NCBI GenBank assembly: GCA_963763775.1
Contig: CAVXPZ010000004.1
Location: forward strand, 288,001-352,000
Origin: an uncultured Chloroflexia bacterium
GTDB lineage: Bacteria > Chloroflexota > Limnocylindria > Limnocylindrales > CSP1-4
Length of the DNA stretch: 64,000 nucleotides
Direction of reading: 5' to 3'
Shown here: in pieces, positions 7,898 through 38,470 of the stretch
Position numbering within the stretch: position 1 is the first letter of the stretch
Layout of the letters: the number at the start of each line of letters is the position of its first letter
Program-made: the position numbers and the translations under genes
The notes under the pieces: model-generated
What the model saw: the letters and a program-made list of their open reading frames with translations, nothing else
What the model was told of the DNA's origin: nothing
Databases searched by the model: none

Positions 7898-7973
7898 GAT
7901 CGACAATGGCAAACCCGTCGCGAGGCGGGGACGCAAAGCCACGGGCCTCTCGCAGGTAGCCGGGCTGCCGATC
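7898..7973 (+). promoter_or_regulatory. c-di-GMP-I (GEMM) riboswitch
   Basis: GATCG-ACAAT-GGCAAACCCGTC-GCGA-GGCGGGGACGCAAAGCC-ACGGGCCT...AGGTAGCCGGGCTGC-CGATC. Has the GEMM-I hallmarks GCAAACC, a GNRA tetraloop, GGACGCAAAGCC and AGCCGGGYTGCC. P1 = GATCG/CGATC. Confidence 0.88.
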
Positions 7974-12858: not shown

Positions 12859-14351
12859 CTACGAGGCGGGAGGAGCCGGCGGGGTCGGCGGGGTGAAGGT
12901 CGAGGCGCTGGGCCATGAGGTCGGCGACCTGCGTCTGGCCGTCGTAGGCCGCGTCGCCGGCCGTGCCGCTCGTCTGGATGGTCAGGGTGCCGCCGTCGCC
13001 GTAGTCGATGATGTACGAGTAGAGGGTGGTCCCGACCGGCGTCCCGCTCTCGGCCGCGGTCGAGGTCGCCTCGACGAGCGTGGCCTGGAGACCGGACACC
13101 GTCGCCTCGACGGTCTGCACGACGTCCCAGTTCGCGGGGTCCGTGGCGGCGGCGACCGCGTCGTCGTACGAGGCGACGTCCGGCTTCACGGTGATCGCCG
13201 ACGTCCGGGCTCGCTGCCATCGGACGGCACGGTGATGGGGTTCGGGTCGAAGTATCGGCAGGCGGCGGCCGGCGGCTCCGACACGGTGTGCCACGAGGAC
13301 GGGTAGACGATCGACGCGAGCTGCGCGCCGCTCGGGCTGCTGACCGTGCAGCTGGATGCCGGCGGCGTGGACGGCAGCGGCGGCAGGGTCGGTGCCGGCG
13401 TGGGCTTCGGCGTCGGGGTCGGCGTGGGCTTGGGCGTCGGCGCCGGGGTGTCGGTCGGCTTCGGCGTGGCGCTCCCTGAGGGCTTGGCCGACGGACTCGC
13501 CGTGGGCTTCGGCGTCGGGGTCGGGGTGGGCTTCGCCGTCGGCTCGGCCGACGGGACCGGCGGGACGGAGGCCTCCGCCTCGGCCCGCGGCCTGGTCATC
13601 GCGACGATGACCTCGTCGTTCCGGTCACGCAGCACCACGGCGAGCCCGCGCGCCTCGATGAAGGCGGCGCCCTCGAGCGCCTGGAGAAAGGCGGACTCCT
13701 GGGTCATCACGTCGTCGGCGCACGTCTGGCGCGTCGTCGCGAGCCGGCTGATCTTCACGATCGTGCCGTTGGTCCCATAGATGCCGTCATACGTGTTGCA
13801 GCCGCTCGAGCCGCCGACGTTCGTGATCCCGAAGACGGCCGTCAGCTCGGTGCCACTGATCGGGATCGTCTGGGAACCCGGCGTCGTCGCGAACGAGTCG
13901 ACGTTCCACTTCCCGAGCAGCGGGTTCTGTGGCGCGGCGTCGAAGACGAGCAGGACCTGGGCGCCGGCGCCGAAGATCGTGAGCACACCGTCACGGATGC
14001 CGAAGAAGCGGCTCTCGTGGAGCGTCGTCAGATAGGTCGACTCGAACGTCATCGAGATGTCGTCGCAGGCCTTCTGCGTGGCGTGGACCTGCGAGATCAG
14101 CAGGGTCCGGCCGCTGGCGCGAGCGAGCGCGCCGTAGTCATTGCAGCCGGCGAACCCGTCGACGCGATCGCCCGGTGAACTTGGCGTCCGCGTACAGCGC
14201 CTCGGGCACGATCTCGAGCGTCCCGCCGTTGGCGTACGACCGCAGGACCCAGTTCGTCCCCTGCGAGCTCGCCGCCGGATCCGGCGCCGGGCGAACACGC
14301 CACGACGCCGAGGGCGAGACCGATCAGGACCGCGAGCCACCGGATCCGCAT
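12859..14351 (-). CDS. META (HslJ) domain lipoprotein with Pro/Thr linker (frameshifted)
   Basis: Lipobox GVVAC; two META repeats (GFAGCNDY, GSSGCNTY..TTRQTC..QESAFL); PTPTPKP linker. Confidence 0.8.
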
Positions 14352-23515: not shown

Positions 23516-23564
23516 CGTCCGCGGCGCCGCGCACGTCGGTCGGTCGTCTCGGAAACCGGCCCGC

Positions 23565-23930
23565 ATGCGTGCGGTGACTCCTGGGACCCGCCGCGGGACC
23601 CGCCAGGGCCGCAGACCATCCCGATCGCCTTCCCGTAGGCATCCGGTGACTGCGCGACGCGTGATCACGCGCCGAGACCCGCTGGACCGGGAGTAGCAGT
23701 CAGGTCATGACTGGCGGCCGGCGATCGCGGCCGCTAGGGCACTGTCGGCCCGGGGATCGCGCTGCGGTTCTTCGCATCCATTCACCAAGCGATGCCTGGT
23801 GGGCTCGCTGCCCCTCCACGCCGCGAATCCAGGCCGATCACGTCGCCCTAGTCATGGCCGTGGTCGCCCACGAAGCGAGCCGTGTCCAACGAGCCCCGTT
23901 CAGCTGCAGAGGCCCCGTTCCATGACTAGG
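23565..23930. repeat. Array A of degenerate 15-bp palindromes (AGTCAYS-N-SRTGACT)
   Basis: Units start at 23565, 23637, 23698, 23780, 23850 and 23913. Confidence 0.6.
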
Positions 23931-24222
23931 TGAGAAGCGAACAGTTCAAGCTTCGGCGCCACGGCACTCCCCAGGCGCTGCCTCAGAGGCCCGACACGGA
24001 ACGACCGCCAGGTCCCGAAGGGCCTGACGGTCGAATGAGATCTGACGGACCACCGCACTGGCAGTATTGCCGGCTCCGCCGCCGCCCGGCATCCCGCCGG
24101 AGGGTCGACGCGCCGCCGGTCGAAGGTCTCGTTGTCCGGCGGTCCGTTCGTGATGACCACACCGTACGACCCGGTCAGCGATGCGATACCTGCCATCCGT
24201 CCTCTTTCGGCATGGACGAATG

Positions 24223-28544: not shown

Positions 28545-29465
28545 TCAGCCGAACGAGGACGCCCGTGCGGCTCCGGCAGCGACGCGCGCCTCGAACCGCT
28601 TCGCGGCCTCGTCGAGGCTGGCCAGGTGCTCGGCGAGGCGTTCGCGTGCGGCCTCGGCCGCCGCATCGAGGCCGGTCAGCTCGAAGATGCCCCAGTGCTT
28701 GATGATCGGCAGCAGGACCTCGTCGCGGTGGATCCGCAGGTCGTAGATGCCGGCCTTCGCGATCTGGGCGGCCTTGCGCATGAAGCCGGGGATCCCGGCG
28801 CCCGGCATCTCGAAGGCGAGCACCTCGTCGACGATCGCGCGGACCGCGGCCGACGGATAGAGCTTGAGCGCCGCCCCGAGGATGTCGCGGTAGAACACCA
28901 TGTGCAGGTTCTCGTCGGCGGCGATCCGGACCATGATCCGGTCCGCGACCGGGTCGTCGGAGTAGCGGCCGGTGTTCCGGTGCGAGATCCGCGTGGCCAG
29001 CTCCTGGAACGCGACGTAGGCGAGGCCGCGCAGCGGGTCGGGCGACTTCCGGTCGTAGCCCTGCTGGAGCTGGGTCATGCGGCCGCGCTCGAGCAGGATG
29101 GGATCGATGTTGCGGGTGACGGTCAGGTAGTCGCGCAGCACGATCGCGTGCCGGCCCTCCTCCGCCGTCCAGCGGCCGATCCAGTTGATCCACGCCCCAT
29201 CGCCGCTGCCGAACATCCCGTGGATCAGCCGGTGGTACGAGGGCAGGTTGTCCTCGGTGAGGAGATTGACCTCGAACGCCGTCTGCGCGACGCCCGTCAG
29301 GCGTGGCTGCTCGGGTGTCCACGGGTCCTTGTCGAAGTCGCGCCCCAGGCGGTACGGGATGTAATCGTGGGGGAACCACTCCTGGGCCACCGCCGCGTGT
29401 CGGTCGTAGAGCCGGCCCGCCTCGGGTTCGAGCTCGATCAGGAGGGCGCGCTCGTCATAGGTCAT
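28545..29465 (-). CDS. Acyl-ACP desaturase (actinobacterial DesA1-like)
   Basis: LLTEDNLPSYH, WTAEEGRH, FQELATRISH, ADENLH di-iron motifs. Confidence 0.93.
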   Translation of the reverse strand: MTYDERALLIELEPEAGRLYDRHAAVAQEWFPHDYIPYRLGRDFDKDPWTPEQPRLTGVAQTAFEVNLLTEDNLPSYHRLIHGMFGSGDGAWINWIGRWTAEEGRHAIVLRDYLTVTRNIDPILLERGRMTQLQQGYDRKSPDPLRGLAYVAFQELATRISHRNTGRYSDDPVADRIMVRIAADENLHMVFYRDILGAALKLYPSAAVRAIVDEVLAFEMPGAGIPGFMRKAAQIAKAGIYDLRIHRDEVLLPIIKHWGIFELTGLDAAAEAARERLAEHLASLDEAAKRFEARVAAGAARASSFG

Positions 29466-34953: not shown

Positions 34954-35366
34954 CGTCGGGACCTCCCGAGCGCGCGGATCGCGGTGGCCGCGTCCTCGGC
35001 GCTCATCTCGTGACGGGCCAGCATCCCGAGGATCTCCTCGCGAGATTCCGGCGCGTTCGTGACCACGGTCGGGTCGTCGATCTCATCGGCGTCGGCGCGC
35101 GCTCCGAACCCGAGGGCTCGGACCAGGGCCTCGACGCGGGACCGGACCGTGGGATAGCTGATGCCGAGCTCGCGCTCCATCTCGCGGAGGTTGCCCCGCG
35201 ATCGCAGGAAGCTCTCGAGCAGCGCCAGCTGCTCGCGGTTCAGGCGGCCGAACCGGCCGACGCTGAAGTCGCCTTCCAGCGCGGTCCCGCAACTCCGGCA
35301 GTGCAGACGTGTGACGGAGAGCTCGCCGGCGCACACCGGACAGGTGGAGATGACGTCGTGTGCCAT
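34950..35366 (-). CDS. DUF2089 family zinc-ribbon/HTH protein
   Basis: CPVC...CRSCGT..EGDF, GNLREMERELGISYPTVRSR. Confidence 0.92.
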   Translation of the reverse strand: MAHDVISTCPVCAGELSVTRLHCRSCGTALEGDFSVGRFGRLNREQLALLESFLRSRGNLREMERELGISYPTVRSRVEALVRALGFGARADADEIDDPTVVTNAPESREEILGMLARHEMSAEDAATAIRALGRSRR

Positions 35367-35403
35367 AAGGTCGGTCCTTCGGTTCCTCGTGCGTGTGGCA
35401 CCT

Positions 35404-35450
35404 GTTGTAATACACGCCTTTCACTTTGTCAATATCCAACATCACTTTGT
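35404..35450 (-). promoter_or_regulatory. Sigma70-type promoter of the DUF2089 operon with a direct-repeat site
   Basis: Minus strand TTGACA (35432-35427), 17 nt, TACAAC. TCACTTTGT is repeated at 35421 and 35442. Confidence 0.65.
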
Positions 35451-35643
35451 GGCATGTCGCACCGGTGCAACGGCAACAGCGCCGTTCGCGCATCGTCAAC
35501 CGTCCATCCCGGGTCGGGAGCGTTTGCCGGGGCGACGAACCGGCCTTCGTCCGCTGGTCCGGATCGGGCCGTCGGCGAGACTGCTGGACATCGGGGTGAC
35601 CGGATGCGTCACCCAGGTGCAGGACCGGAAAGGAGACGAACCG

Positions 35644-35763
35644 ATGTCCGCTCACCAGCAGATCGTCCGGGCAGACCCACTCGGCGCCGTGCCGGCCGCC
35701 CTGGTCGTGATCATGGCCATCCTCGCGATGCTCGGCGTCATCGCCCACGCGGCAGTCCTCTAA
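35644..35763 (+). CDS. 39-aa single-TM small protein
   Basis: GAAAGGAGA RBS; MSAHQQIVRADPLGAVPAALVVIMAILAMLGVIAHAAVL*. Confidence 0.65.
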   Translation: MSAHQQIVRADPLGAVPAALVVIMAILAMLGVIAHAAVL

Positions 35764-35900
35764 GGGCTCGCCCTCGTCGACGCCGACGCTCCTCAGCTCT
35801 TCCCGGCCCCGGCAGGACGTCAGCCCTGACCGGGGCCTCCGTTCGCCCTGGGCGAGCTCGAGCGACGGCCGCAGCGGGGCGCTCATCGGATCGCCGTCCG

Positions 35901-36357
35901 CCGTGTCTCTGCTCGAGCGCGGGCGTTCGTCGGATCCCGCGCGCAGTCACCAGGTGCGTGCAATGCCAGTCAGGCGGTGCGGGATCCCTGAAGCGCGCCT
36001 CGAACTCCCGGCGCTCAGTCACCTGGTGACTGGTGGCACGTCGATCGGGCGTTTGAGACGTCGCTGGCTGCCCGGCGGCGTGGATAGGAGTCACCCCATG
36101 ACTGCGGCGCCGGCTCGGGTCACATCGTCCGGCGTGCTGGCGCGCGGCGAGGTGGAACAGCCGAGGCCCGCCGGCCCGGGTCGACCTGAACGGCCTTCTT
36201 CCGGTTCAGTCACCAGACGGGGCCTGTGTGCGCGGCTCCGGCGGATCTCGCGCTGCCGAGTCCTGGGGTGACTACGCAGCAGGCGAATCGACCCGATCTG
36301 GCCTTGGGAGCCTCCACAGGGGTCGACTGGTGACTGCGCGAGAAGGACGAGACACGG
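35901..36357. repeat. Array B of degenerate 15-bp palindromes (AGTCACC-N-GGTGACT) bounded by inverted repeats
   Basis: Units at 35945, 36017, 36089, 36208, 36259 and 36321. Inverted repeats CCGTGTCTC/GAGACACGG and CGCGCAGTCACCAG/CTGGTGACTGCGCG. Confidence 0.7.
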
Positions 36358-36371
36358 GCAGCGCGGACCGT

Positions 36372-36404
36372 GGATCCGAGGGCGGCCGCGGATCCGAGGG
36401 CGGC
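36372..36404. repeat. Short tandem duplication
   Basis: GGATCCGAGGGCGGC at 36372 and 36390 (18-bp period). Confidence 0.7.
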
Positions 36405-36430
36405 GCGCCCGGCCGTCGCGGACCAGGGGC

Positions 36431-36480
36431 TTGACACGCCGCCATTCACCGCCTACCGTCCGTTCAACAACTATTGAACG
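36431..36480 (+). promoter_or_regulatory. Sigma70 promoter with palindromic operator
   Basis: TTGACA (36431), 17 nt, TACCGT (36454); CGTTCAA-N6-TTGAACG at 36461-36480 covers the predicted start site. Confidence 0.75.
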
Positions 36481-36491
36481 ATGGTGACGAA

Positions 36492-37142
36492 GTGAACGCC
36501 GAACACGTGATGAACCCGAGCGAGACCCCGGCCGATCTCGGGCCGGAACCCATCCCCGAACTCCGCATCACCGACGTCGAGACGATCAAGGCCCTGTCCG
36601 ACCCGCTCCGGCTCCGGATCCTCGAGATCATGACCGCCGGCCAGGCCGAGACCTTCACCGTCAAGCGCCTGGCGGGCATGCTCGGCGTCAACCCGACCAA
36701 GCTCTACCACCACATCAACCTGCTCGCCGACCGGGGCCTGATCAACCCGGCCGGCCAGCGTGTCGTCTCCGGGATCATCGAGACGAGCTATCGAATCGCG
36801 CAGCTCAAGATCAACCTCGATCGATCCCTGCTGGCCAACGACAGCCCCGAACTGCACGACGTCCTCGTGACCGTCTTCGACGGCGCGCGGGACGACATCG
36901 AGCGCGGACTCCGGTCCGGCGCCATCGGCCTGTCCGAGGACGCCGAGCCGATCACCAGGCTGCTCCTCTCCAAGGGCATCGCCCGACTCTCCGCCGACCG
37001 GGCGGTGGAATTCCGGACCCGGATCATCGAGCTCTTCGAGGAGTTCGACACGGACCAGCTCGACGCCGAGGCCAGGCCCTATGGGCTCGTCTTCGGCTTC
37101 TATCCGATGCCGGACCTGGCATCGGCGGAGGATGACGAATGA
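36492..37142 (+). CDS. ArsR-like winged-HTH transcriptional regulator
   Basis: IKALSDPLRLRIL...TVKRLA...KLYHHINLL. Start could be 36492 or 36510. Confidence 0.88.
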   Translation: MNAEHVMNPSETPADLGPEPIPELRITDVETIKALSDPLRLRILEIMTAGQAETFTVKRLAGMLGVNPTKLYHHINLLADRGLINPAGQRVVSGIIETSYRIAQLKINLDRSLLANDSPELHDVLVTVFDGARDDIERGLRSGAIGLSEDAEPITRLLLSKGIARLSADRAVEFRTRIIELFEEFDTDQLDAEARPYGLVFGFYPMPDLASAEDDE

Positions 37143-38470
37143 CCGACCAGCCGGCCGCCGCGGCGATGAACGTGCGCGGCGTGCTCCGACTCCCCGACTT
37201 CCGACGCCTGTGGGGCGCCCAGGCGATCTCCGACGTCGGCGACGGCCTGACGATGCTGACGCTGATGCTCGTCGTCAACCAGCTGACGCACTCGACCCTG
37301 GCGCTCGCGGCCGTCGCGATCGCCCTGGCGATCCCGCCGCTCACGATCGGCATCGTGGCGGGCTCCTACGTGGACCGCTGGGACCGTCGTCGGATCATGA
37401 TCGTGGCCGACGCGTCGCGGGCCGTCATCGTGCTCGGCTTCGTGCTCGCCGCCCGGGCGGAGATGATCCCGCTGGTCATCGTCCTCGGCTTCGTGCAGTC
37501 GTCGATCGGCACGTTCTTCAGCCCGGCACGCGGGGCGCTCGTCCCGCGAGTCGTCCCCGCCGAGGGTCTCCTTGCGGCCAACTCGATCACCCAGGCGACC
37601 CGGGTGATCGCCGGTGTCCTCGGCAGCGCGATGGCCGGGATCATCGTCGGCGTCGCGGGCATGACCTGGCCGGCCTTCGTCATCGATGCCGCCACGTTCG
37701 CCATCTCGGCGCTCATCATCCTCCGGGTGACCCCCGCGCTCGGGCGCCCGACCGCCAGGGAGCGGCAGGCGGTCGGCAGTGTCGGAGCCTCCGTGATGGA
37801 GGGCCTGCGGTTCGTCGCCGGCTCACGTCTCCTCGGCACGACGCTTCTCGCGCTGACCGTGGTGATGCTCGGCCTCGGCGCCATCAACGTCCTGTTCCTG
37901 CCGCTCATCGTCAACGTCCTCCAGGTCAACCCGGCCTGGCTCGGGGCGGTCGACCTCGCCCAGAGCGCGTCCATGATCCTGTCCGCCGGCCTCGTGGCGG
38001 TCCTTGCCGCGCGCATCCGGCCGACGACGCTCGTCACGGTCTCGATCCTCGGCGTCGCCGTGCTGATCGGGCTCGTCGGCGCCACGACCCATGTCGCGCA
38101 GGTCCTTCTGCTCCTCTTCGGGATCGGCTGGTTCGTCACCCCGGTGCAGGCCGCCGTGGTCACGATCTTCCAGACCGGGGTCCCGGACGAGAAGCGCGGA
38201 CGCGCGATGGCCACGCTCCAGGCGGCGATGTCCGGCGCGAGCGTCGCCTCGATGGCGCTCGCCGGGATCTTCGGGGAGCTGGTGGGCGTTCGGACCGTCT
38301 TCTTCCTGGGGGCCCTGGTCGTCGCCACCGGTGGCATCGCGGCCGCGTTCCTCTATCGCGGCCTGCCGAAGGACACGGCCGAGACGGCCCCCGACGGCAC
38401 GCAGGCCGACGGTGCCGTGGACGAGCGGTCGGACGGCCCGATCGACCTGGGCGAGGGCGCCACCGCCTGA
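37139..38470 (+). CDS. MFS transporter (DHA3/MFS_3-like)
   Basis: FRRLWGAQAISDVGD, GSYVDRWDRRRIM, RGRA. Confidence 0.9.
   Translation: MTDQPAAAAMNVRGVLRLPDFRRLWGAQAISDVGDGLTMLTLMLVVNQLTHSTLALAAVAIALAIPPLTIGIVAGSYVDRWDRRRIMIVADASRAVIVLGFVLAARAEMIPLVIVLGFVQSSIGTFFSPARGALVPRVVPAEGLLAANSITQATRVIAGVLGSAMAGIIVGVAGMTWPAFVIDAATFAISALIILRVTPALGRPTARERQAVGSVGASVMEGLRFVAGSRLLGTTLLALTVVMLGLGAINVLFLPLIVNVLQVNPAWLGAVDLAQSASMILSAGLVAVLAARIRPTTLVTVSILGVAVLIGLVGATTHVAQVLLLLFGIGWFVTPVQAAVVTIFQTGVPDEKRGRAMATLQAAMSGASVASMALAGIFGELVGVRTVFFLGALVVATGGIAAAFLYRGLPKDTAETAPDGTQADGAVDERSDGPIDLGEGATA

What the first reader, a model, noticed from the sequence alone, without database searches (positions are those of the whole stretch)
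35901..36357. Gene-free array of regularly interspaced 15-bp palindromes (AGTCACC-N-GGTGACT), array B
Seen: about 700 bp between the 39-aa peptide gene and the ArsR promoter has no credible ORF but holds six 15-mers: 35945 AGTCACC-A-GGTGCGT, 36017 AGTCACC-T-GGTGACT (perfect), 36089 AGTCACC-C-CATGACT, 36208 AGTCACC-A-GACGGGG, 36259 AGTCCTG-G-GGTGACT, 36321 GGTCGAC-T-GGTGACT. Start-to-start spacings are 72, 72, 119, 51 and 62 bp, with unrelated sequence between units. Seven exact AGTCACC/GGTGACT half-sites fall within 400 bp, while I noticed very few elsewhere. The block is bracketed by nested inverted repeats: CCGTGTCTC at 35901 with GAGACACGG at 36349, and the 14-bp CGCGCAGTCACCAG at 35940 with CTGGTGACTGCGCG at 36327. 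Known: the motif is not parS, matS (GTGAC-N3-GTCAC, opposite half-site order), attC or a CRISPR repeat, and no Cas, integrase or transposase gene is nearby. Inference: 51, 62 and 72 bp are close to 5, 6 and 7 helical turns, which suggests a phased multi-site platform for a dimeric DNA-binding protein (nucleoid organisation, partitioning or looping). Alternatively it could be a roughly 460-nt structured ncRNA or a processed repeat-spacer RNA array.
Basis: partly seen in the sequence, partly recalled or inferred. Interest (0 to 1): 0.85.

Follow-up and report, generated by a model that had tools for sequence, protein, structure and literature searches.

The report
Dispersed palindromic repeat elements, not organiser
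The gene-free "array" is real, but it is two neighbouring copies of a small non-coding palindromic repeat element that is scattered through this genome and its genus, inserted here between two conserved genes, much like the REP/REPIN repeats of other bacteria.

Summary
Seven of the genome's 129 AGTCACC/GGTGACT words lie in 391 bp, where 0.015 are expected.

The block is not a unique platform. It belongs to a non-coding repeat family present at about 10 intergenic loci in this genome. The family is found in part of one genus and almost nowhere else in the order.

Congeners carry the same core as tandem units of 61, 72 or 82 bp, or as ~150-bp three-site foldback elements. Array B is two such three-site elements.

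They sit in a ~565-bp block missing from the same gene gap in 3 of 3 congeners. An orthologous array has 4 versus 3 units in two close relatives.

No ORF, Rfam family, Cas1, RAYT or DDE transposase was found.

Best reading: a REPIN/BIME-like repeat family without a known mobilising enzyme. The conserved cores and turn-spaced sites keep a protein-binding role open. Moderate interest.

The parts
35853..36420 (.). Lineage-specific non-coding block of about 565 bp that contains the whole array. Congeners G047 and G017 have 17 and 10 bp here; G065 has about 245 bp of unrelated sequence.
   Evidence: Three-way alignment A3; G065 locus read; R1 finds no significant site in those loci (best in-gap scores 12.9-13.2 bits, E 0.3-0.4).
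35925..36110 (.). Element 1: three sites 72+72 bp apart. They are 35945-35959 (outward-facing terminal type), 36017-36031 (perfect central palindrome) and 36089-36103 (the CACCCCATG variant that also occurs in congeners).
   Evidence: R1 matches at 35920-35977(-), 35992-36049(-) and 36071-36128(+). Partial R2 match at 35933-36045, 24.5 bits. Paralogous to the array A region and to C3:340643-340939.
36196..36350 (+). Element 2: a canonical three-site foldback element. Terminal sites at 36208-36222 and 36321-36335 face outward; the central site is at 36259-36273. Spacings are 51+62 bp, and the 31-nt terminal inverted repeats run beyond the 15-mers (CTTCCGGTTCAGTCACC... / ...GGTGACTGCGCGAGAAG).
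   Evidence: Inverted repeat I1; RNA fold -79 kcal/mol, z -3.63; 68% identical paralog at C3:163442-163589; R2 139.8 bits as a training copy; the same 51+62 layout in G024 and G050.
36104..36207 (.). The 119-bp gap between the two elements. It holds a 14-nt direct repeat (36108-36121 and 36169-36182, 61 bp apart), each copy followed by a degenerate GGTC... half-site.
   Evidence: family D10; sequence. Not analysed further.
36363..36404 (.). 18-bp tandem repeat (2.3 copies, GCGGCCGCGGATCCGAGG) at the right end of the inserted block. It is inverted relative to the TCGGATC motifs at 35886-35937 on the left end.
   Evidence: TRF; inverted repeats I9, I10 and I13 and direct repeat D9.
35644..35763 (+). 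Left flank: 39-aa hydrophobic peptide gene, conserved in G017, G047 and G065.
   Evidence: GC by codon position 0.78/0.40/0.88; orthologs read; no Pfam family.
35803..35839 (+). Left flank: hairpin (GGCCCCGGCAGG...CCTGACCGGGGCC) just after the peptide gene, nearly invariant in the congeners compared. Homology with congeners stops a few bases after it.
   Evidence: Alignment A3; exact match in G065.
36426..36480 (+). Right flank: conserved promoter-like stretch (TTGACA at 36431-36436, TACCGT at 36454-36459) and the palindrome GTTCAAC...TTGAAC (36462-36479) in front of the ArsR-type gene. Homology with congeners resumes here.
   Evidence: Alignment A3. The promoter reading is by eye; the consensus scan called nothing.
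36474..37142 (+). Right flank: ArsR/HTH_20 regulator gene, followed by an MFS transporter gene (37139-38470).
   Evidence: Pfam HTH_20 9.5e-08; MFS_1 2.4e-29.
23560..23940 (.). The window's other array ('array A'), same family: R1 sites at 23619-23676 and 23680-23737, and an R2 foldback match at 23765-23939(-).
   Evidence: 28.9 and 26.9 bits; 35.3 bits, E 4.7e-7.

Best explanation
Array B is two adjacent copies, plus flanking debris, of a genus-specific non-coding palindromic repeat element. The element resembles the REPIN/BIME repeats of proteobacteria and the minisatellites of mycobacteria.

Structure:
- The basic site is a symmetric core. In this genome it reads YAGTCACC-N-GGTGACTR. Across the genus it generalises to GTTCGGTCA-N5-TGACCGAAC or to YAGTC-N7-GACTR flanked by CTTCTCG/CGAGAAG.
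- Sites occur singly, as ~150-bp three-site foldback elements (outward-facing end sites plus a central palindrome), or as head-to-tail units of 61, 72 or 82 bp.

Shown:
- The family is dispersed in intergenic DNA, mostly at gene 3' ends.
- The block holding array B is missing from the same gene gap in three congeners.
- Unit number changes between close relatives.
- The block codes for nothing.

Inferred:
- Units multiply in place by replication slippage or unequal recombination between the palindromes.
- New loci arise by insertion into tolerant intergenic DNA through an unidentified route. No RAYT or common DDE transposase is detectable.
- The cores and their spacing are kept because they are what the propagation or recognition machinery sees, either a protein dimer on duplex DNA or a long hairpin.

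At this locus the block most likely acts only as a passive spacer or insulator between the peptide gene's hairpin and the ArsR-type promoter.
For: 1. Family, not a unique array.
- Clusters of the half-site occur at C2:129226-129365, C3:163442-163580, C3:215527-215675, C3:340718-340877, C4:311575-311925, C4:239327-239486, C4:246683, C4:64773-64912 and C1:159764.
- 25 of 129 half-sites lie in 10 loci totalling 2,370 bp.
- Paralogy extends through the 'spacers' (68% and 67%).

2. Congeners.
- G024 has 72-bp tandem units (TRF: period 72, 2.3 copies, 87% matches).
- The site model R1 finds matches in 33 of 61 genus genomes at E<=0.01, with 10-23 matches in G000, G017, G024, G063, G066 and G070.
- At E<=0.001 it hits 6 of 18 other genus members, 0 of 80 genomes in 25 other genera of the family, and 1 of 42 in the sister family.
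- The foldback model R2 finds matches in 11 of 61 genus genomes, G000 included.

3. Insertion. The 39-aa gene, its hairpin and the ArsR promoter are conserved in G047, G017 and G065. The block between them measures 17, 10 and about 245 (unrelated) bp, against about 565 bp in G000. No significant R1 site lies in those gaps.

4. Copy-number change. G024 and G070 share flanks but have 4 versus 3 units.

5. Non-coding. GC is flat across codon positions, 0 of 4 ORFs hit Pfam, and there is no Rfam match.

6. Genomic context, from 48 arrays or single sites. Of the 27 that lie between two resolvable genes, 15 are convergent, 8 co-directional and 4 divergent. Three more lie inside called ORFs and 18 are unresolved.

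7. Foldback. Element 2 has 31-nt inverted ends and z = -3.63. The outer stem is kept in 5 of 5 G000 paralogs, and 11 of 40 predicted pairs show a two-sided change.

8. Published parallels.
- REPINs are inverted REP doublets that form hairpins.
- They form tandem clusters of up to four, spanning over 700 bp.
- Disordered clusters arise by insertion next to existing copies.
- REPs also form evenly spaced tandem arrays.
Source: PMC3116915, abstract and sections 11 and 12 read.
Against: - No mobilising enzyme was found. Y1_Tnp/RAYT is absent in 0 of 9 genus genomes tested. rve, DDE_Tnp_1, DDE_3 and Transposase_mut are all absent from G000. G000 is 87% complete.
- No target-site duplication was seen by eye at 0 of 13 foldback copies.
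- Copy number is low: 36 matches on both strands at E<=0.2 in G000, several of them probably chance. Classic REPs number in the hundreds.
- G000 copies are old (61-68% identical) yet keep their cores and the 51/62/72 spacings. Neutral decay would not predict this, so some function is suggested.
- Gain versus loss at the orthologous gap is not rooted by a tree. Only three orthologous loci exist among the 61 genomes searched, G000 included.
- TRF does not detect array B itself as a tandem repeat.
Confidence: 0.6

Rival explanations
1. The element is a functional, helically phased platform. The three-site module and the tandem units are arrays of operators for an unidentified dimeric DNA-binding protein (nucleoid-associated, recombination accessory or silencing). 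That protein sits on one face of the helix and wraps or loops the DNA. The repeat family is then the set of its chromosomal binding loci.
For: - The core is symmetric. AGTC and GACT are separated by 7 bp, so half-site centres lie one turn apart. A weaker conserved block lies another ~10 bp out (CTTC/GAAG, 0.7-0.8 bits at +/-15 to 17).
- The inner 5-7 bp vary freely between genomes and are often not self-complementary (CCGGG, TGGGG, CCCCA, GGGGG, GGAGG, GCCCG).
- Unit lengths fall into classes of 61, 72 and 82 bp (plus 51-52 in G000), in arrays whose spacers are otherwise dissimilar.
- The 51+62 layout recurs in G000, G024 and G050.
- Cores are retained in copies whose spacers have decayed to about 60-68% identity.
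Against: - The block is absent from the orthologous gap in 3 of 3 congeners.
- The family is patchy within one genus and not found in 25 neighbouring genera.
- Unit number varies between close relatives.
- No candidate partner gene is linked to the loci. The flanking DUF2089 HTH gene is also present where the array is absent.
- The length classes represent only 3-4 independent values, so phasing could be inheritance plus chance. By my rough estimate the chance is a few per cent.
- WW-dinucleotide periodicity is not significant in array B (p = 0.89). Elsewhere it coincides with harmonics of the unit length.
Confidence: 0.22
2. The element is a structured non-coding RNA, or an RNA-level element. 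The palindromes are hairpins in transcripts (3'-UTR stabilisers, terminators or processing sites), or the ~150-nt foldback is a small RNA gene.
For: - Element 2 folds into one long hairpin at -79 kcal/mol; 0 of 200 shuffles fold as well.
- Sites lie mostly just downstream of genes, often 20-100 bp from a stop codon.
- At stem pair 19-33 of the site model the states are G-C 58, G-T 19, A-T 15 and A-C 1 of 97 distinct sites. G-U-type intermediates are seen; A-C ones are not.
Against: - No Rfam family matches, even at E<=5.
- There are 0 promoter-like and 0 terminator-like sites in 35300-36700, and no U-tract after the hairpins.
- Element 1 is not unusually stable (z = -1.76; 8 of 200 shuffles fold as well).
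- Sites inside array B face both ways.
- The asymmetric apex occurs in both orientations (CATGGGG 23 versus CCCCATG 13 at pair 24-28).
- The G-T/A-T pattern rests on very few independent events, mainly G066 and G000, and the model's choice of strand favours G-T.
- Quantised spacing has no RNA rationale.
- No RNA data were available.
Confidence: 0.1
3. The block is a CRISPR-like repeat-spacer array, a plasmid-type centromere (sopC/parS-like) or a decayed protein-coding gene.
For: Regular ~72-bp spacing of short palindromes in a gene-free stretch.
Against: - The repeats are only 15 nt long and degenerate, and TRF finds no array there.
- The 'spacers' are homologous between loci and genomes.
- There is no Cas1 in G000.
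- The block does not match phages or plasmids.
- About 10 loci lie on all four contigs, not one per replicon.
- There is no coding signal and no Pfam hit.
Confidence: 0.02

Closest known systems
REPINs and REP clusters / BIMEs (REP doublets forming hairpins; Bertels & Rainey 2011, PMC3116915; abstract and sections 11-12 read)
   Same: - Short extragenic palindromes.
- Inverted pairs with a spacer that fold into a long hairpin.
- They occur singly, as tandem clusters several hundred bp long, and as disordered clusters made by insertion next to an existing copy.
- Evenly spaced tandem arrays also exist; that paper reports spacings of 72 and 112 bp.
- Array B looks like two adjacent such units.
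   Different: - No RAYT (Y1 transposase) in 0 of 9 genus genomes tested.
- Tens of sites per genome, not hundreds.
- Three sites per element (two ends plus a central palindrome), not two.
- No constant GTAG end.
- The host is labelled as an uncultured Chloroflexia MAG lineage (title of a congener's record).
MITEs (miniature inverted-repeat transposable elements)
   Same: Length of 130-190 bp, no ORF, about 31-36-nt terminal inverted repeats, several diverged copies per genome, intergenic location.
   Different: - No target-site duplication was seen.
- No parent IS or common DDE transposase is present in G000.
- Relatives carry the same core as head-to-tail direct arrays, which cut-and-paste MITEs do not form.
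Mycobacterial interspersed repetitive units and SMAG-type palindromic VNTRs (SMAG: PMC2613905, abstract and section 5 read; MIRU features recalled from memory)
   Same: Units of 40-100 bp in intergenic DNA, present as single units or head-to-tail clusters whose unit number differs between relatives: 4 versus 3 units in G024 and G070, and 61/72/82-bp units.
   Different: Array B itself is not a clean tandem array, and its sites face both ways. MIRUs are described as lying within operons and sometimes carrying small ORFs (recalled); here the bias is towards convergent gene ends.
Multi-site accessory or centromere DNA: the three dimer-binding subsites of resolvase res sites, and the 43-bp sopC repeats (both recalled from memory, not tested)
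   Same: Several imperfect palindromes at fixed spacing within 100-500 bp, a layout that suits cooperative binding of dimers.
   Different: Those sites lie next to their recombinase or partition genes and occur once per replicon. This family has about 10 loci and no linked gene.

Membership tests
REP / REPIN (RAYT-mobilised) | Short imperfect palindromes confined to extragenic DNA | tested here: met
   No coding signal in the block. 45 of 48 arrays or single sites lie outside called ORFs.
REP / REPIN (RAYT-mobilised) | Inverted doublet plus spacer predicted to form a hairpin | tested here: met
   Element 2 has 31-nt inverted ends and z = -3.63. The outer stem is kept in 5 of 5 paralogs. Element 1 is weaker (z = -1.76).
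REP / REPIN (RAYT-mobilised) | A RAYT (Y1_Tnp, PF01797) gene in the genome, typically beside a cluster | tested here: not met
   0 of 9 genus genomes (G000, G004, G015, G017, G024, G050, G063, G066, G070; completeness 60-93%). The control search found the family in 6 of 14 reference genomes.
REP / REPIN (RAYT-mobilised) | High copy number (hundreds per genome) | tested here: not met
   36 matches on both strands at E<=0.2 in G000, which I collapsed by eye to about 27 distinct sites; several are doubtful.
REP / REPIN (RAYT-mobilised) | Conserved GTAG-type tetranucleotide at one end (stated for SMAG/REP in PMC2613905, section 5) | tested here: inconclusive
   Sites are preceded by YAG (TAG or CAG), and only some by GTAG.
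MITE | Terminal inverted repeats, length under 600 bp, no ORF | tested here: met
MITE | Target-site duplication flanking each copy | tested here: not met
   No consistent direct repeat at 0 of 13 copies inspected by eye with 40-nt flanks. The copies are old, so decay could hide one.
MITE | Autonomous parent element with the same ends and a transposase | tested here: not met
   G000 lacks rve, DDE_Tnp_1, DDE_3, Transposase_mut and Y1_Tnp. Other transposase families and other genomes were not searched.
Minisatellite / VNTR (MIRU- or SMAG-like) | Head-to-tail units of 40-100 bp in intergenic DNA | tested here: inconclusive
   Met in congeners (period 72; 61-, 72- and 82-bp arrays). Array B itself is not reported by TRF and has sites in both orientations.
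Minisatellite / VNTR (MIRU- or SMAG-like) | Unit number varies at an orthologous locus | tested here: met
   G024 has 4 units and G070 has 3, between near-identical flanks.
CRISPR array | Near-identical repeats of 23 nt or more, separated by unique spacers, with cas genes | tested here: not met
   The repeats are 15-nt degenerate cores. Spacers are shared between loci. No Cas1 in G000. No phage or plasmid match.
Any Rfam RNA family | Match to a curated covariance model | tested here: not met
   Nothing reached a gathering score in the window at this place. At E<=5 there was only a chance snoRNA hit at 36439-36499.
Centromere / parS-type array | One array per replicon beside parAB-type genes | tested here: not met
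   About 10 loci lie on 4 contigs. Neighbours of array B are DUF2089, DUF4097, ArsR-type and MFS genes. The presence of ParAB was not searched.

The most novel reading that the evidence does not exclude
The ~150-bp three-site module has end sites and a central palindrome 51 and 62 bp apart, with AGTC/GACT and CTTC/GAAG blocks each about one helical turn apart. It may be the conserved docking platform of a still unidentified protein in an uncultured, Chloroflexia-labelled soil lineage. That protein would be either a new kind of mobilising enzyme for REPIN-like DNA, unrelated to RAYTs and DDE transposases, or a nucleoid protein whose binding loci are copied around the genome. The 61/72/82-bp unit classes would then reflect selection for same-face phasing.
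Probability: 0.2. Interest if true: 0.65.

Novelty: new variant of a known kind. Interest (0 to 1): 0.4.

Why it matters
Small intergenic repeats are well studied in proteobacteria and mycobacteria. I found no record of this family's sequences in print: the literal-sequence search returned 13 papers, all unrelated by title, and a keyword search returned only known systems.

This family shows REPIN/BIME-like behaviour: dispersed palindromes, foldback units, tandem expansion, and insertion at gene ends. It does so in genomes where no RAYT (0 of 9) or common DDE transposase (G000 only) is detectable. That raises the question of what spreads or maintains it.

The practical consequences are modest:
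- The repeats explain the long gene-free gaps in these genomes.
- They could serve as strain markers.
- They warn annotators not to read such arrays as regulatory platforms for the neighbouring genes.

The turn-quantised spacing is the one feature that could lead to something new.

Tried and rejected
- RNA evidence: no RNA holder was listed for 35300-36900.
- Laying contigs of four DNA runs gave only 150-270-nt pieces. None bridged the array, so they give no information on strain variation.
- A DNA-level BLAST of the block against 40 relatives found only 22-38-nt fragments. Covariance models were needed.
- The exact 23-mer of the G024 palindrome occurs in only one species genome of the genome-contig collection.
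- WW-dinucleotide periodicity: not significant in array B (p = 0.89) or array A (p = 0.95). Where a 10.25-bp peak appears, it is a harmonic of the unit length. Dropped as evidence.
- Strand calls of model R1 are unreliable for near-symmetric sites. For example, the three L082 sites are called - + - although they read alike. Orientation-based arguments were therefore not used.
- New R1 hits in G000 outside the training loci look like chance palindromes, except perhaps C1:1113503.
- The 9-bp outer inverted repeat (35901/36349) is treated as possibly chance.
- Earlier-findings look-ups returned nothing.
- A resemblance of the arm GGTCACCCGG to 11-nt direct-repeat boxes of OmpR/PhoB-type regulators is only recalled, was not tested, and is not used.
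The comparison was then made from coordinates.
- Supplementary files of the two papers read were not consulted. Figures S7 and S8 of PMC3116915, on cluster layouts, might refine the comparison.
Full report
THE OBSERVATION

So are the two bracketing inverted repeats.

The window holds 11 exact AGTCACC/GGTGACT words, and 7 lie in 35945-36335. The whole 3.30-Mb, 4-contig genome holds 129. A 391-bp stretch therefore expects 0.015, and P(>=7) is about 4e-17, or 3e-13 after allowing for all such windows.

The 710-bp gap between the 39-aa gene and the ArsR-type gene is non-coding:
- Its four ORFs of 68-122 aa have third-position GC of 0.64-0.76, against 0.86-0.95 in the neighbouring genes.
- Codon-position GC is flat.
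- None of the four hits Pfam.

IT IS NOT A ONE-OFF

Other clusters of the same words lie on all four contigs, in small gene-free gaps. GC3-filtered ORFs show that most of these gaps lie between convergent genes. 25 of the 129 words fall in 10 loci that total 2,370 bp.

The similarity is not limited to the palindromes:
- 36208-36335 aligns along its length with C3:163442-163589 (68%).
- 35995-36147 aligns with the reverse strand of the window's other array near 23519-23672 (67%).

So the sequence between units is not unrelated filler.

The conserved ends of the 36208-36335 copy run beyond the 15-mers (CTTCCGGTTCAGTCACC... / ...GGTGACTGCGCGAGAAG), giving 31-nt inverted arms (I1). The same outward-facing end motif recurs at C3:163449, C3:163572, C3:215534, C3:215668, C3:340725, C4:64780, C4:64904 and C1:159777.

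Array B therefore resolves into two three-site elements:
- Element 1, about 35925-36110, with spacing 72+72.
- Element 2, 36196-36350, with spacing 51+62.

Each has two end sites facing outward and a central palindrome.

RELATIVES

A pattern scan of 40 relatives showed a variant palindrome, GGTCACC-N-GGTGACC, in congener G024 at 72-bp intervals. The fetched DNA shows clean head-to-tail 72-bp units whose palindrome extends to GTTCGGTCACC-N-GGTGACCGAAC (TRF period 72, 2.3 copies, 87% matches).

I built a covariance model of the site (R1) from 39 sites in G000 and G024.
- It finds matches in 33 of 61 genomes of the genus at E<=0.01.
- There are 10-23 matches in G000, G017, G024, G063, G066 and G070.
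- At E<=0.001 it finds 6 of 18 other genus members, 0 of 80 genomes from 25 other genera of the family, and 1 of 42 from the sister family.

The family is thus confined to one genus and is patchy within it. The public record title of the congener's contigs reads 'MAG: uncultured Chloroflexia bacterium'.

ARCHITECTURE ACROSS THE GENUS

From 150 aligned matches I kept 99 distinct sites in 48 arrays or singles. The 51 neighbour spacings cluster as follows:
- 60-62 bp: 10
- 71-75 bp: 26
- 81-82 bp: 5
- 94-170 bp: 10, including 144 twice

The 61-, 72- and 82-bp classes occur in different genomes, in arrays whose spacers are otherwise dissimilar.

The stem-like part, GTTCGGTCA/TGACCGAAC, is conserved. 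The central 5 nt vary and are often not self-complementary.

A second model, R2, was built from the five G000 foldback copies. It finds related ~150-bp elements in 10 of 60 other genus genomes; the best scores are G050 at 48.9 bits, G015 at 38.2, G020 at 36.7 and G024 at 31. In these the conserved parts shrink to YAGTC-N7-GACTR plus CTTCTCG/CGAGAAG about one turn further out. The 50/51+62 layout recurs in G024 (two elements) and in G050 (one element, mirrored), as in element 2 of array B.

THE ORTHOLOGOUS GAP

The ArsR-type gene has orthologs (E<=1e-20) in only 4 of 60 other genus genomes. Three of them, G047, G017 and G065, keep three features: the 39-aa peptide gene, the hairpin after it, and the promoter-like stretch before the regulator gene.

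Between hairpin and promoter the lengths are:
- G047: 17 bp
- G017: 10 bp
- G065: about 245 bp of unrelated sequence
- G000: about 565 bp (35853-36420), holding the whole array

R1 with filters off finds no significant site in those gaps.

The array is therefore not a conserved feature of this locus. This spot is a variable insertion point. The direction of change (gain in G000 versus repeated loss) is inferred by parsimony, not rooted.

Separately, an array between near-identical flanks has 4 units in G024 and 3 in G070. This is minisatellite-like behaviour.

WHAT IT IS NOT

- No Rfam family matches.
- There is no promoter-like or terminator-like consensus in 35300-36700.
- There is no Cas1.
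- There is no similarity to phage or plasmid records.
- No RAYT is present in 9 genus genomes.
- G000 has no rve, DDE_Tnp_1, DDE_3 or Transposase_mut.
- No target-site duplications are visible at 13 copies.

G000 is 87% complete, so absence is 'not found', not proof.

MECHANISM

What is shown:
- A dispersed non-coding family.
- A bias towards gene 3' ends. Among 27 arrays or singles lying between two resolvable genes, 15 are convergent, 8 co-directional and 4 divergent. Three more lie inside called ORFs and 18 are unresolved.
- Lineage-specific presence at this locus.
- Unit-number change between relatives.

What is inferred:
- Tandem growth by slippage or unequal recombination.
- Dispersal by an unknown route.
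- Retention of the cores because they are the recognised part.

This behaviour matches published REPIN and REP clusters. Those include inverted doublets that form hairpins, tandem clusters of over 700 bp, disordered clusters formed by insertion beside existing copies, and evenly spaced tandem REP arrays (PMC3116915, abstract and sections 11-12). It also matches palindromic VNTR families that occur singly or head-to-tail (PMC2613905, abstract and section 5).

Membership in the REP/RAYT family fails on the RAYT test. Membership in MITEs fails on the duplication and parent-element tests.

THE OPEN QUESTION

G000 copies are only 61-68% identical, yet they keep the cores and the 51/62/72 spacings. 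The conserved blocks sit about one helical turn apart, with unconstrained sequence between them.

The support is moderate:
- The length classes amount to three or four independent values.
- Dinucleotide periodicity adds nothing.
- No partner gene is linked.

For RNA-level hairpins the evidence is the stability of element 2 (z = -3.63) and a G-C / G-T / A-T series at one stem pair with almost no A-C (58/19/15/1 of 97). That series rests on few independent events and on a strand choice that favours G-T. Element 1 is not unusually stable (z = -1.76). No RNA data could be had.

VERDICT

This is a real and highly non-random feature, correctly described. It is best read as two adjacent members of an undescribed, genus-restricted, REPIN/BIME-like repeat family sitting in a lineage-specific insertion. 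It is not a dedicated chromosomal organiser or an ncRNA gene. Interest is moderate. The turn-quantised spacing and the lack of any known mobilising enzyme are the parts worth following.

Noticed in passing
window 35644-35763 and 35803-35839: A 39-aa gene encodes a peptide with a hydrophobic C-terminal half (coding-like GC 0.78/0.40/0.88). It is followed by a strong hairpin. Both are conserved upstream of the ArsR-type gene in G017, G047 and G065. No Pfam family matches.
   Followed up: partly
window 36426-36480: A conserved promoter-like stretch (TTGACA, 17 nt, TACCGT) and the palindrome GTTCAAC-N4-GTTGAAC-like (36462-36479) lie just before the ArsR-type gene. This is probably its own operator. 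It is kept in congeners that lack the array.
   Followed up: partly
L086 (G065), reverse strand about 1190-1434: The same hairpin-to-promoter gap holds about 245 bp of a different, unrelated sequence. This position therefore looks like a recurrent insertion or variable spot.
   Followed up: no
whole genome G000: AGTCACC/GGTGACT is scarce outside the repeat loci. There are 129 in 3.30 Mb (about 2.5 per 64 kb), whereas dinucleotide shuffles of the window give 6.4 per 64 kb.
   Followed up: no
whole genome G000: No match to five transposase families (Y1_Tnp, rve, DDE_Tnp_1, DDE_3, Transposase_mut) or to Cas1, in a 4-contig assembly that is 87% complete. This suggests a genome with very few or no classical insertion sequences.
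   Followed up: partly
window 7899-7973 and 29092-29159: Rfam gathering-level matches to a c-di-GMP-I-GGC riboswitch (75.5 bits) and to ASdes (50.3 bits). ASdes is a family described from mycobacteria, so the second match is unexpected for a lineage labelled Chloroflexia.
   Followed up: no
window 13378-13548: Nested 12/24/30/48-bp tandem repeats (GTCGGCGCCGGCGTGGGCTTCGGC-like, up to 13 copies). They are probably a repetitive coding segment.
   Followed up: no
G009:C17:235-251 and G009:C301:3-19: Identical variant palindromes (CAGTCTCCAGATGACTG) sit at the very ends of two contigs of a fragmented congener assembly. This is expected if the repeats break short-read assemblies.
   Followed up: no
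L040 (G063) about 1660-1800: A different short-period array: repeats of about 29 bp (GTCCGTTCAGTCACCCGGTGGCAGCCGCC-like), followed by 18-bp GGTGACCGCGCCCGTC-like units built from the same core.
   Followed up: no
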